Under the pieces are notes generated by a model. The model was given only the letters and a program-made list of their open reading frames with translations, was not told the origin of the DNA and did no database searches. A DNA stretch of 64,000 bases from Escherichia phage vB_EcoM_G17. How positions within the stretch are numbered: position 1 is the first letter of the stretch; each line of letters opens with the position of its first letter. Below are positions 1,573 to 2,310 of this stretch, in pieces. The translations under genes were made by a program, and so were the position numbers. Location: the sequence record MK327931.1; one strand, given 5' to 3'.

Positions 1573-2310
1573 ATGTTACCTTTTGGAAGAATGATTAAGT
1601 ACGGGAATGAAATTGAATATAAGCCACATGGTGAACAATTAATCACGACAATAGGAACAACACAATTTACAGTTCCTGCTGGCGTTACCGAAATATCAGT
1701 ATGTGTTATTTCGCCGGGTGGTCAACGTGGTGCTGGCGGCGGCTTATCGTGGCGTAATAATATTCCGGTTACTAGTGGTGAGTACTTAAGTGTTTCTCTT
1801 ACGCATACCAACACTACTACACCAGTTGAAAACGGTTTATATCGTGGAACTGAAAAACTATGTGTTAGCTTCACTGGTGCATATACGGTTGGTGGACTAG
1901 GTGGAAAAGCTGCTAACGCTATTAATGATGGTGGTGGTAATGGTGGCAATACTGGTGTAAGTGGTGGTGCAGTCATTGGTGGTGGTGCTGGTGGCTACAC
2001 AGGTAAAGGTGGTAACGGAGATGCAATCACTGGTGAAAATGGTGCTGGCGGCGGCGGGGGCGGTGGTACATTCTATAATACCTCGTTCATTGGTACGGGT
2101 GGTGGTACTGGTATCATTGTTCAAGGTGCTAATGGTATTGGTGGTAGCTACGGTGGTTCATATAATGGTGGTGCTGGTAGTGGTGGTGCTGGTAAGATGT
2201 ATGGTGGTGGTGGTAGTATATGGGATAATTCTTCTTATACGGCTGCTGGTGGTGGTGCTGTGCGAATAATATGGGGAAATGGGAGATATTATCCTAACAA
2301 TTCAGTATAA
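1573..2310 (+). CDS. Glycine-rich protein carrying the same N-terminal leader (MLPFGRMIKYGNE)
   Basis: 245 aa; leader then TVPAGVTEISVCVISPGG and long GGxGG tracts; internal ORFs on both strands are low-complexity artefacts. Confidence 0.8.
   Translation: MLPFGRMIKYGNEIEYKPHGEQLITTIGTTQFTVPAGVTEISVCVISPGGQRGAGGGLSWRNNIPVTSGEYLSVSLTHTNTTTPVENGLYRGTEKLCVSFTGAYTVGGLGGKAANAINDGGGNGGNTGVSGGAVIGGGAGGYTGKGGNGDAITGENGAGGGGGGGTFYNTSFIGTGGGTGIIVQGANGIGGSYGGSYNGGAGSGGAGKMYGGGGSIWDNSSYTAAGGGAVRIIWGNGRYYPNNSV

What the first reader, a model, noticed from the sequence alone, without database searches (positions are those of the whole stretch)
1573..2310. Glycine-rich protein carrying the same leader as the RCC1-like paralogues
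This ORF has the identical leader and upstream cassette, but its body is TVPAGVTEISVCVISPGG followed by long GGxGG tracts, with no RCC1-type repeats. It is the strongest evidence that the leader is a transferable module. The low-complexity tract also creates several spurious ORFs on both strands in the track.
Basis: seen in the sequence. Interest (0 to 1): 0.6.

Follow-up and report, generated by a model that had tools for sequence, protein, structure and literature searches.

The report
Glycine-rich binding head with shared leader
This is a real gene of a giant E. coli phage: its glycine-rich body has the fold other phages use at their fibre tips to recognise hosts, and its first 12 residues are a tag shared with many unrelated virion proteins, probably to plug them onto the particle.

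Summary
ORF 1573-2310 is Sharanji gp113 / 121Q gp243, from an Asteriusvirus jumbo phage. It is a genuine 245-aa gene.

- **Coding:** substitutions among orthologues fit frame 1. There are 206 homologues.
- **Array:** it sits in a tandem array of RCC1-like genes and shares with them a ~100-nt cassette (terminator hairpin, AT-rich box, SD, codons 1-12) at 89-95% identity.
- **Leader:** MLPFxR[MLI]xxY[GA]N also heads Kelch, ConA/LamG-like and no-Pfam bodies in phage CBB and relatives. Most are mass-spectrometry-verified virion proteins, including the homologue CBB_144. Glycine-rich homologues in other phages carry different leaders.

**Best reading (inferred):** the leader docks interchangeable binding heads onto the virion, possibly its "hairs", and the repeated cassettes drive gene shuffling.

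**Verdict:** the fold is known; the leader system appears undescribed. Interest is moderate.

The parts
1507..1527 (+). Terminator-like hairpin (AGCCAGTAC-TCA-GTACTGGCT) followed by a T-run. It is the first element of the repeated cassette and closes the upstream RCC1-like gene 313..1500.
   Evidence: 9-bp stem, 5 GC pairs, T tail; 12 terminator-like sites found vs 3.4 expected; repeated at 246-270, 2316-2338 and 7083-7105
1539..1567 (+). AT-rich promoter-like box ATTAAATATATTATAAT (TATAAT at 1550-1555) and Shine-Dalgarno AAAGGAGG (1560-1567). The promoter class is not established.
   Evidence: (TATAATGAATAAAGGAGG found 3x vs 0.19 expected). The sigma-70 scan was not enriched and found no -35 element.
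1573..1608 (+). Leader, codons 1-12: MLPFGRMIKYGN. It is shared with the RCC1-like paralogues and, in related jumbo phages, with Kelch, ConA/LamG-like and other bodies.
   Evidence: M1 L2 P3 F4 Y10 N12 invariant in 23/23 proteins; AF2 pLDDT about 49 for aa 1-10
1609..1629 (+). Linker, aa 13-19 (EIEYKPH). Homology to neighbouring genes ends here and homology to the glycine-rich family (GEQL = family motif GQQ[LV]) begins.
   Evidence: inter-genome homology blocks break at 1608-1611
1630..1881 (+). N-terminal part of the TNF-like beta-sandwich, aa about 20-103 (strands 20-24, 28-33, 40-46, 58-65, 71-76, 86-91, 94-100). Family motifs are F.VP.GVT.I and GGGLSWRNNIPV..GE. The boundary is approximate.
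1882..2211 (+). Glycine-rich domain inserted in the sandwich, aa about 104-213, about 39% Gly. Motifs are INDGGGNGGN, GGGAGGYTGKGGNG, GAGGGGGGG, GTGGGTGIIVQGANG and GAGSGGAGKMYGGGG. It is predicted as a lattice of extended polyglycine-II type segments. The boundary is approximate.
   Evidence: comparison with Pam3 gp24 (39% Gly, 12 glycine-rich motifs; PMC9608196)
2212..2310 (+). C-terminal strands that return to the sandwich (aa 214-245, including the family-wide GAVRIIWG.GR.YP), plus the stop codon.
   Evidence: (R231 I232 I233 W234 G235 at least 90% conserved, P241 invariant)
2316..2338 (+). Downstream terminator-like hairpin, which is the start of the next cassette copy (for gene 2381..3556). 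The glycine-rich gene is therefore a self-contained unit bracketed by two cassette repeats.
1722..2269 (.). Span of three spurious ORFs generated by the GGT-rich tract: 1722..1976(-), 1897..2124(-) and 1961..2269(+). The last is the frame annotated as gp004 in phAPEC6.
313..7283 (+). The array of leader-bearing genes in the window. RCC1-like genes are at 313..1500, 2381..3556, 3565..4707, 4718..5527 (short) and 5908..7077, with a truncated 44-aa remnant at 7149..7283. In Sharanji the array continues upstream, with 13 leader genes gp106-gp118.

Best explanation
ORF 1573-2310 is a functional gene of an Asteriusvirus (121Q/phAPEC6/Sharanji-type) jumbo phage. It encodes a small two-module virion protein.

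Module 1 is a flexible 12-residue N-terminal leader (MLPFGRMIKYGN) plus a short linker. Module 2 is a compact TNF-like beta-sandwich with an inserted glycine-rich (polyglycine-II type) domain. That fold forms the receptor-recognising distal end of the Pam3 tail fibre, the Bxb1 'brush' and spike, and the ligand-binding domain of ALK.

Proposed mechanism (inferred): the leader is a clade-specific docking tag. It fixes many different binding heads (RCC1 propellers, Kelch propellers, ConA/LamG-like lectin folds, this glycine-rich head) to one common acceptor site on the particle. That site is most plausibly the hair-like fibres or decoration sites seen on the tail sheath and capsid of phAPEC6 and CBB. 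The glycine-rich head would then contribute one more specificity for reversible binding to a host-surface ligand.

At the DNA level each head gene is bracketed by ~100-nt repeats (terminator hairpin, AT-rich box, SD, leader codons). These repeats serve as recombination substrates, so heads are gained, lost and reordered as cassettes.

Shown here: the gene is real, the fold, the sharing of the leader across unrelated bodies, virion association of homologues and paralogues, and the cassette repeats with breakpoints at them. Inferred: the docking role of the leader, the acceptor site, the ligand and the timing of expression.
For: - **Identity and context:** the window is 99.7% identical to Sharanji. 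The gene is conserved at 84-100% in 17 Asteriusvirus records.
- **Coding:** frame-1 substitution pattern; 206 homologues; 7,438 cluster representatives with a profile search.
- **Leader as a module:** M1 L2 P3 F4 Y10 N12 are invariant in 23 proteins falling into 8 BLAST-unrelated body classes. Pfam confirms Kelch, Laminin_G_3, RCC1 and an RCC1+Kelch fusion behind the leader. In IMG/VR the leader occurs only in 348-378 kb Rak2-like genomes, apart from two chance-like fragments. Other glycine-rich homologues carry other leaders, for example 30 of 121 start MxE[MLAT][LMI].
- **Selection acts on the peptide:** in CBB the leader codons vary synonymously and the upstream DNA is unrelated, yet the peptide is kept.
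- **Virion association:** phAPEC6 RCC1-like gp003, 005, 006, 007, 009 and 010 were found by MS (PMC7247149 Table 1). CBB_144 (37% id to the query, E 4e-18) was found by MS with 5 peptides and 34% coverage (PMC5259590 Table 4). CBB_247, 536, 537, 548, 549, 551, 552 and 553 are annotated as structural proteins in the CBB record. All six CBB structural proteins that the paper lists as absent from GAP32 (candidates for the 'hairs') carry the leader.
- **Cassette shuffling:** cassette identity is 89-95% versus about 55% next to it. There are 8 or more cassette copies per array, and inter-genome homology blocks end at 349-363, 1608-1611 and 2417-2430. The 9-kb stretch of the SHEFM2K array fetched here lacks the gene, and SHEFM2K gave no tblastn match.
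Against: - There is no direct evidence that gp113 itself is in the virion. The real ORF is missing from the phAPEC6 annotation, so its MS search could not find it.
- No experiment or structure shows what the leader binds, or whether it is retained in mature particles.
- GAP32, not reported as hairy, also has leader-bearing proteins, so the link to hairs is only circumstantial.
- The hairs are about 119 nm long and cannot be made of these 24-43 kDa globular proteins alone. A separate fibre protein would be needed and was not identified.
- The query itself does not reach any Pfam, NCBIfam or PDB sequence threshold, so the fold rests on a prediction.
- The gene is dispensable: it is absent from about half of the related genomes, and one metagenomic variant has lost the leader.
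Confidence: 0.6

Rival explanations
1. The leader is a capsid-targeting sequence of the T4 internal-protein type. It would send the RCC1-like and glycine-rich proteins into the prohead, where they become internal or inner-body proteins that organise DNA or are injected with it, and the leader might be cleaved off. This follows the phAPEC6 authors' suggestion that the RCC1-like proteins help order the DNA.
For: The proteins are virion-associated by MS, with no location known (PMC7247149 Table 1; PMC5259590 Table 4). phAPEC6 has an inner body, and its authors speculate that RCC1-like proteins order the DNA. A 10-12-aa leader conserved across otherwise unrelated proteins in a polymorphic locus, together with conserved expression signals, is exactly the T4 IP/CTS pattern (own knowledge: Repoila et al. 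1994; Mullaney and Black).
Against: No Glu or (L/I)xE-type cleavage motif is conserved in or after the leader. The proteins are near neutral (pI 6.4-9.2), not small basic DNA-binding proteins. Every body type is a typical surface-binding fold. The glycine-rich fold in particular sits at the outer tips of tail structures in all three solved phage examples (PMC9608196).
Confidence: 0.12
2. The leader peptide has no function of its own. The first 36 nt are conserved because they belong to a DNA- or RNA-level cassette (terminator, promoter, translation-initiation region) that is homogenised by gene conversion and used for recombination. The peptide is a passenger.
For: In Asteriusvirus the conservation extends continuously from -66 to +36, includes synonymous positions, and is 89-95% identical at the DNA level. 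Homology breakpoints lie at the cassette. Regulatory cassettes that mediate shuffling are known in T4-type phages (PMC2839356, PMC4122927).
Against: In CBB the same peptide is kept on 11 genes whose upstream DNA is not conserved. The leader codons there differ synonymously (CCT/CCA/CCG, TTT/TTC, TAT/TAC, AAT/AAC, TTA/CTT). Genes 3565, 4718 and 5908 in the window keep the leader without the terminator/promoter part. Six residues are invariant in 23/23 proteins across two genera. The two explanations are not exclusive: the cassette role is part of the best explanation.
Confidence: 0.12
3. The glycine-rich protein is a tip adhesin or accessory for the baseplate tail fibres, like gp38 of T2/S16 on gp37, rather than part of the hair or decoration system. 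The leader would then bind the distal end of a conventional tail fibre.
For: The solved relatives are parts of tail fibres or tail-tip structures. S16 gp38 is a precedent for a small glycine-rich adhesin attached through its N-terminus to a fibre tip (PMC9608196 discussion; PMC3157838). phAPEC6 has six short baseplate fibres.
Confidence: 0.1
4. The ORF is not a distinct functional gene. It is either a decayed RCC1 paralogue or a chance ORF produced by a low-complexity GGT-rich tract.
For: The tract is low-complexity with ORFs in several frames. There is no Pfam, NCBIfam or PDB sequence hit for the query itself. phAPEC6 and CMSTMSU annotate it differently.
Against: There are 206 homologues with conserved non-glycine motifs. 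The predicted fold is confident and specific. A homologue is found in virions by MS (PMC5259590). There is no similarity to RCC1 bodies beyond the leader. The substitution pattern fits frame 1.
Confidence: 0.01

Closest known systems
Cyanophage Pam3 tail fibre gp24 (PDB 7YPX; PMC9608196)
   Different: Pam3 gp24 docks through a long trimeric alpha-helical bundle and needs the chaperone gp25. Here the N-terminus is a 12-aa unstructured leader with no predicted helix. No Tfa-like chaperone gene was noticed next to it, though the neighbours were not searched specifically. Sequence identity is only 17%.
Mycobacteriophage Bxb1 tail wing brush gp33 and tail spike gp29 (PDB 9D93)
   Different: The host, phage type (siphovirus) and attachment differ. 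The Bxb1 paper was not available, so how gp33 attaches could not be compared.
ALK/LTK glycine-rich ligand-binding domain (PDB 7LRZ, 7NX3, 7LIR, 7LS0)
   Different: It is an animal receptor ectodomain with 15-19% identity and no sequence-level hit. The resemblance is one of fold, not of function.
Pfam PF21722 Gly_rich_2 (glycine-rich domain-containing proteins of phages and bacteria)
   Same: The query's homologues carry this domain (39 of 121). They share the motifs and the architecture of a short N-terminal extension followed by the body.
   Different: The query itself scores below E 0.1 against the Pfam model, so it is a divergent member. Many family members have the domain at the C-terminus of very long fibre-like proteins, whereas here it stands alone behind a 12-aa leader.
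T4 internal proteins with their capsid-targeting sequence, in the polymorphic IP locus
   Same: A ~10-aa N-terminal leader shared by unrelated proteins that end up in the virion, encoded in a variable locus with conserved expression signals.
   Different: The T4 leader is cleaved at (L/I)xE and targets the inside of the head, and the cargo proteins are small and basic. None of these features is seen here. This comparison rests on my own knowledge of the T4 literature.
PeSL promoter/stem-loop cassettes of T4-type phages (PMC2839356, PMC4122927)
   Same: Short conserved stem-loop plus promoter motifs flank variable ORFs and mark the boundaries of insertions, deletions and replacements between close relatives. 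The same is seen here at 1507-1608 and 2316-2419.
   Different: Here the repeat extends through the SD into the first 12 codons, so recombination also preserves a protein module. The promoter type is unknown. The lineage is Rak2-like, not a T4-type phage proper.

Membership tests
PF21722 Gly_rich_2 / TNF-like + glycine-rich domain family | Match to the Pfam model at or above its threshold | tested here: not met
   No Pfam family at E <= 0.1 for the query, and none in NCBIfam.
PF21722 Gly_rich_2 / TNF-like + glycine-rich domain family | Significant sequence homology to proteins that carry the domain, with the family motifs | tested here: met
   phmmer hits of E 1e-16 to 1e-7 to PF21722-bearing proteins. 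39 of 121 aligned homologues hit PF21722. Conserved positions include P35, G55-G56-x-L58, N62, G120-G125, G136-Y142 and R231-G235.
PF21722 Gly_rich_2 / TNF-like + glycine-rich domain family | TNF-like beta-sandwich with an inserted lattice of glycine-rich extended segments | tested here: met
Pam3 gp24-type tail fibre | N-terminal trimeric alpha-helical bundle that docks to the baseplate | tested here: not met
   No helix is predicted before residue 111. Residues 1-19 are unstructured with low confidence.
Pam3 gp24-type tail fibre | Presence on the virion and a role in host recognition | not testable with these tools
   Indirect only: homologue CBB_144 was found in CBB virions by MS (PMC5259590 Table 4). 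No binding data exist.
RCC1-like paralogue family of the array (PHROG 4219) | RCC1 repeats / RCC1-like beta-propeller | tested here: not met
   There are no RCC1, RCC1_2 or WD40_RLD hits, whereas all five neighbours have them. The query hits PHROG 4474, not 4219. BLAST places it in a separate class.
Leader-bearing virion proteins of Rak2-like jumbo phages (defined here) | N-terminus MLPFxR[MLI]xxY[GA]N directly at the start codon | tested here: met
   MLPFGRMIKYGN. The six invariant positions are all present.
Leader-bearing virion proteins of Rak2-like jumbo phages (defined here) | Detected in purified virions | not testable with these tools
   Shown for paralogues and homologues in phAPEC6 and CBB (PMC7247149, PMC5259590). 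For this protein the phAPEC6 search database lacked the ORF.
T4-type capsid-targeting sequence proteins | Conserved prohead-protease cleavage motif ((L/I)xE) at the end of the leader | tested here: not met
   No conserved Glu at positions 1-16. Position 9 is K/E/N/Q/R and positions 13-16 are variable.
T4-type capsid-targeting sequence proteins | Location inside the head | not testable with these tools
   No localisation data were found in the papers read.
PeSL-like mobile regulatory cassettes | Conserved stem-loop plus promoter motif flanking variable ORFs | tested here: met
   Terminator-like hairpins at 246-270, 1507-1527, 2316-2338 and 7083-7105. The cassette is 89-95% identical between genes and has 8 or more copies in phAPEC6.
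PeSL-like mobile regulatory cassettes | Indel and replacement boundaries between close relatives coincide with the motifs | tested here: met
   Homology blocks to 121Q, phAPEC6 and SHEFM2K end at 349-363, 1608-1611 and 2417-2430. The gene is absent from the fetched stretch of the SHEFM2K array.
PeSL-like mobile regulatory cassettes | The promoter is a recognisable (sigma-70 early) promoter | tested here: inconclusive
   A TATAAT box is present but has no -35 element. The sigma-70 scan was not enriched (40 found vs 35.8 expected). The timing of transcription is unknown.

The most novel reading that the evidence does not exclude
The 12-residue leader is a universal plug. All leader-bearing proteins of Rak2-like jumbo phages (RCC1, Kelch, ConA/LamG-like and glycine-rich heads) are the interchangeable terminal knobs or decorations of the unexplained hair-like fibres on the tail sheath and capsid of phAPEC6 and CBB. 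Each is attached through the same peptide-acceptor interaction. This gives the virion a combinatorial library of adhesins that evolves by cassette shuffling. It would identify the components of the hairs, an open question in both papers, and would provide a minimal peptide tag for displaying foreign proteins on jumbo-phage particles.
Probability: 0.3. Interest if true: 0.7.

Novelty: new variant of a known kind. Interest (0 to 1): 0.5.

Why it matters
The body alone is ordinary: one more member of a very large glycine-rich domain family that phages use for host recognition. What matters is the combination.

In this group of giant phages, one 12-residue N-terminal peptide is attached to at least five unrelated binding folds, and nearly all of these proteins have been detected in virions. 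That gives a concrete, testable candidate list for the unexplained "hairy" appendages of phAPEC6 and CBB, and for the attachment principle behind them.

It also argues against the widespread annotation of the RCC1-like paralogues as "DNA condensation proteins". In addition, it shows how a repeated terminator-promoter-leader cassette can shuffle both regulation and a protein-docking module at once.

Practically, the true ORF is missing or mis-framed in some deposited genomes (phAPEC6, CMSTMSU), so published virion proteomics could not have detected it.

Tried and rejected
- **Single-sequence AlphaFold** was useless (pLDDT 34). Only the MSA-based run was informative, so one of the two structure jobs was wasted.
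- **Sequence-only searches with the query** found nothing in Pfam, NCBIfam or PDB. The family profile against PDB gave only a spurious galectin match at E 0.33.
- **Literature searches** for the leader string 'MLPF' with 'phage', and for jumbo phage + RCC1 + cryo-EM + N-terminal, found no description of the leader.
- **Papers that did not help:** the Sharanji paper does not discuss gp113 or the array. The Bxb1 Cell paper is not held. The CBB supplements list proteins but not peptides, so retention of the leader in mature virions could not be checked.
- **The sigma-70 promoter scan** was not enriched and did not classify the cassette promoter.
- **Horizontal origin from GC content** was considered and rejected. 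The elevated GC (45% vs 33.5%) is explained by 71 glycine codons, 51 of them GGT.
- **Degraded RCC1 paralogue** was considered and rejected.
- **Two IMG/VR pattern hits** (L016, L020; MLPFYSVKDYAN..., 548 aa) were judged chance-level matches to the degenerate pattern and were not followed.
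Full report
**Origin of the window.** The first 8 kb are 99.7% identical to Escherichia phage Sharanji (OR545507, 350 kb, genus Asteriusvirus) and 90-97% identical to 121Q, phAPEC6, SP27 and others. The target ORF is Sharanji gp113 (hypothetical protein), which is 121Q gp243. It lies in a tandem array of genes usually annotated as 'regulator of chromosome condensation / putative DNA condensation protein'.

**Check of the observation.**
- The ORF 1573..2310 (+) encodes 245 aa beginning MLPFGRMIKYGN. It contains TVPAGVTEISVCVISPGG followed by Gly-rich tracts.
- Glycine is 29% of the protein and 39.4% of residues 104-245. 51 of the 71 Gly codons are GGT. This raises the local GC to 45-50% against 33.5% for the window, and explains the extra ORFs at 1722..1976(-), 1897..2124(-) and 1961..2269(+).
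- The leader DNA occurs six times in the window, against 0.01 expected. At the protein level the leader heads six full genes and one 44-aa remnant in the window, and 13 genes in Sharanji.
- 'Identical' is slightly too strong. The in-window copies share 9-11 of 12 residues; Sharanji gp109, just upstream of the window, is 12/12.
- The upstream cassette consists of a hairpin GCCAGTAC-n3-GTACTGGC with a T-run, ATTAAATATA.TATAAT, and AAAGGAGG. It is shared with genes 313 and 2381 only. Genes 3565, 4718 and 5908 keep just the SD and leader.
- From -66 to +36 the glycine-rich gene is 89-95% identical to six RCC1 paralogues, against 53-61% in the following 102 nt.

**It is a real gene and not an RCC1 relic.**
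- Among four full-length orthologues, 40% of differing codons are synonymous in frame 1, against 14-16% in the other + frames. The antisense frame that shares third positions scores the same, so strand is set by the other evidence.
- The five neighbours all hit RCC1-type Pfam models; this ORF hits none. It falls in PHROG 4474, not 4219. BLAST finds no similarity to the RCC1 bodies beyond the leader.
- A search of the 5.8-billion-protein collection gave 206 homologues. Most are ~245-aa proteins sharing F.VP.GVT.I, GGGLSWRNNIPVTPGE, INDGGGNGG, GGGAGGYSGNGG, GGGVG..GQG and GAVRIIWG..R.FP. 39 of 121 carry PF21722 Gly_rich_2.
- A profile search of 1.84 billion cluster representatives found 7,438 members (2,227 at E <= 1e-30). 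In many of them the domain is at the C-terminus of proteins of 500-5,000 aa.

**Fold.**
- Without an alignment AlphaFold failed (pLDDT 34). With the 121-sequence alignment it gave pLDDT 93.2 and pTM 0.90.
- Residues 1-10 have pLDDT of about 49, and there is no secondary structure before residue 20. Beta-strands span 20-100, and again 215-234 after a long non-regular glycine-rich stretch.
- In BFVD there are 77 viral matches. Most are named 'glycine-rich domain-containing protein'; some are tail fibre, minor tail or baseplate proteins.
[quoted passage not shown] It notes the likeness to ALK and to S16 gp38 (PMC9608196).
- The body is therefore a TNF-like sandwich with an inserted polyglycine-II type lattice. 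It is neither a beta-helix nor a fibre.

**The leader is a module.**
- Following a tblastn hit to a CBB 'structural protein', I found that CBB_144 is a homologue. It is 37% identical over 129 aa (E 4e-18) and starts MLPFSPLIVYGN.
- In CBB the leader also heads CBB_247, 536, 537, 548, 549, 550, 551, 552, 553 and 554. Their bodies are Laminin_G_3/ConA-like, Kelch, or have no Pfam match.
- A degenerate DNA pattern for the leader, scanned over IMG/VR, matched only 348-378 kb Rak2-like genomes (121Q, CBB, GAP32 and three uncultivated ones), plus two chance-like fragments. One genome has a 667-aa RCC1+Kelch fusion behind the leader.
- Over 23 proteins from Sharanji and CBB, M1, L2, P3, F4, Y10 and N12 are invariant. 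The bodies fall into eight BLAST-unrelated classes, and leader identity between classes is still 67%.
- In the other direction, glycine-rich homologues elsewhere carry other short N-termini: 30 of 121 start MxE[MLAT][LMI], and others start MSGALQAVFQNQRSFG..., MSFGxPVRNG... and so on. Homology to the query begins at GQQ[LV], residue ~20.
- In CBB the peptide is maintained with synonymous codon variation and without any conserved upstream DNA. Selection therefore acts on the peptide, not only on a nucleic-acid signal.

**Virion association.**
- phAPEC6 mass spectrometry found six of the RCC1-like proteins in purified particles (PMC7247149 Table 1).
- CBB_144 is listed in the CBB MS table with 5 peptides and 34% coverage (PMC5259590 Table 4). 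CBB_247, 536, 537, 548, 549, 551, 552 and 553 are annotated as structural proteins in the CBB record.
- The CBB paper names CBB_144, 247, 536, 537, 551 and 552 as the six structural proteins without a GAP32 counterpart, and hence as candidates for the tail 'hairs'. It leaves the identity of the hairs open. All six carry the leader.
- phAPEC6 has similar hairs on the sheath rings and on the capsid.
- The glycine-rich ORF itself could not have been detected in phAPEC6. That record annotates only gp004 (7716..8018), which is the +1-frame artefact VVQSLVVVLVAT....

**Cassette shuffling.**
- The ~100-120-nt cassette recurs between nearly all array genes (at least 8 copies in 16 kb of phAPEC6).
- Collinear blocks between the window and 121Q, phAPEC6 or SHEFM2K stop at 349-363, 1608-1611 or 2417-2430, that is, at the end of the leader.
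- 121Q shares RCC1_313 and the glycine-rich gene but has a different paralogue after the next cassette. The 9-kb stretch of the SHEFM2K array fetched here lacks the glycine-rich gene, and SHEFM2K gave no match in the whole-collection tblastn.
- Only 17 of the 32 Escherichia-phage records that have the leader also have the gene.
- One metagenomic relative has lost the leader by a deletion between two GGGAAT repeats, and also carries a 39-aa deletion in the glycine tract.
- This behaviour matches the promoter/stem-loop (PeSL) cassettes that mediate modular shuffling in T4-type phages (PMC2839356, PMC4122927). The difference is that the repeat here runs into the coding sequence and so carries a protein module along.

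**Most likely mechanism.** Shown: a real gene, a confident receptor-binding-type fold, a flexible leader shared by unrelated virion proteins, and repeats at recombination breakpoints. Inferred: the leader docks all these heads to a common acceptor on the particle, and the heads provide different binding specificities for host-surface ligands. The hairs are the most attractive acceptor, but that link is circumstantial. GAP32 also has leader proteins, and the long fibre itself is not accounted for.

I put about 0.85 on 'functional TNF-like/glycine-rich virion-type protein' and about 0.55 on 'leader = docking tag', giving 0.6 overall.

Rivals:
- **T4-like capsid-targeting signal (0.12).** This is weakened by the absence of a cleavage motif, the neutral pI and the surface-type folds.
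- **Passenger peptide of a DNA-level cassette (0.12).** This is weakened by the CBB codon data.
- **Tip adhesin of the baseplate fibres (0.10).**
- **Spurious or decayed ORF (0.01).**

**Novelty.** The gene is deposited in 17 genomes as 'hypothetical protein', and its fold belongs to a known, very large family. The sharing of one 12-aa leader by five or more folds of virion proteins in Rak2-like phages was not found in any paper searched. The annotation 'DNA condensation protein' for the array looks unsupported. I rate it a new variant of a known kind, with moderate interest.

Noticed in passing
L002 (phAPEC6 MK817115) 7325-8056 vs annotated gp004 7716-8018: phAPEC6 does not annotate the true glycine-rich ORF. 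Its gp004 is the +1-frame artefact (VVQSLVVVLVAT...), so the published virion proteomics could not have detected this protein. The CMSTMSU record has frameshifts in the same gene and splits it into two CDS.
   Followed up: yes
L003 7001-7765; L005 5001-5735; L006 14369-25465 (phage CBB KU574722): All six MS-verified CBB structural proteins that the CBB paper lists as absent from GAP32 (CBB_144, 247, 536, 537, 551, 552; its candidates for the tail hairs) start with the MLPF..Y[GA]N leader. So do CBB_548, 549, 550, 553 and 554. The paper does not mention the shared N-terminus.
   Followed up: partly
L006 about 25475-25560, minus strand (directly upstream of CBB_554): There is a remnant of a glycine-rich gene's C-terminus (..AIGGAVRIIYGDDRSFPNTLTNNQ*) with no intact ORF in front of it, at the edge of the CBB terminal repeat. 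It is probably a decayed second copy of the family.
   Followed up: partly
L027 1238-1858 (Logan assembly SRR12907740, Asteriusvirus-like contig): A natural variant of the gene lacks the 12-codon leader, through a deletion between two GGGAAT repeats in the SD and in codons 11-12. It also lacks about 39 aa of the glycine tract. It may be a decaying copy or an assembly effect.
   Followed up: partly
L011 8134-8799 and 10001-10744 (149,956-bp contig from a Plesiomonas shigelloides MAG assembly; it carries phage terminase, portal and capsid genes): A second leader class may exist. The glycine-rich homologue starts MIELLAISGTKP, and a neighbouring 221-aa protein with a weak Laminin_G_3 match (E 0.018) starts MNEMMIVSAQQGG. 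30 of 121 glycine-rich homologues start MxE[MLAT][LMI]. This suggests the same 'short leader plus interchangeable head' design in unrelated phages.
   Followed up: partly
window 7083-7283: A truncated leader-bearing ORF (7149..7283, 44 aa, MLPFRRIITSSKK..GTLYSRGSQ*) lies behind a cassette-like hairpin (7083-7105). It looks like the stump of another RCC1-like paralogue at the end of the array. Sharanji annotates 7083-7283 as gp118.
   Followed up: no
window 4718-5907: The RCC1-like gene 4718..5527 is short (269 aa) and is followed by about 380 nt without a long ORF, so it looks like a 3'-truncated paralogue. Its phAPEC6 counterpart gp007 (30 kDa) was nevertheless detected in virions (17.5% coverage).
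   Followed up: no
L018 6416-8416 (IMG/VR UViG_3300031417_000002, 355 kb): A 667-aa protein with the leader combines an RCC1-like propeller (aa 29-269) and a Kelch propeller (aa about 400-590). Two heads sit behind one leader.
   Followed up: no
window 45934-50176, minus strand: There is a cluster of seven tRNA genes (Thr-TGT, Asn-GTT, Met-CAT, Ser-ACT, Arg-TCT, Ser-TGA, Gly-TCC). Several are unusually long (90-92 nt) and one has an odd Ser-ACT anticodon call. The tRNA-Gly reads GGA/GGG, not the GGT that dominates the glycine-rich gene.
   Followed up: no
window 7535-64000, minus strand: The rest of the window is a dense run of about 85 small minus-strand ORFs (100-300 aa), divergent from the plus-strand array. 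They are annotated as hypothetical in Sharanji and were not examined.
   Followed up: no
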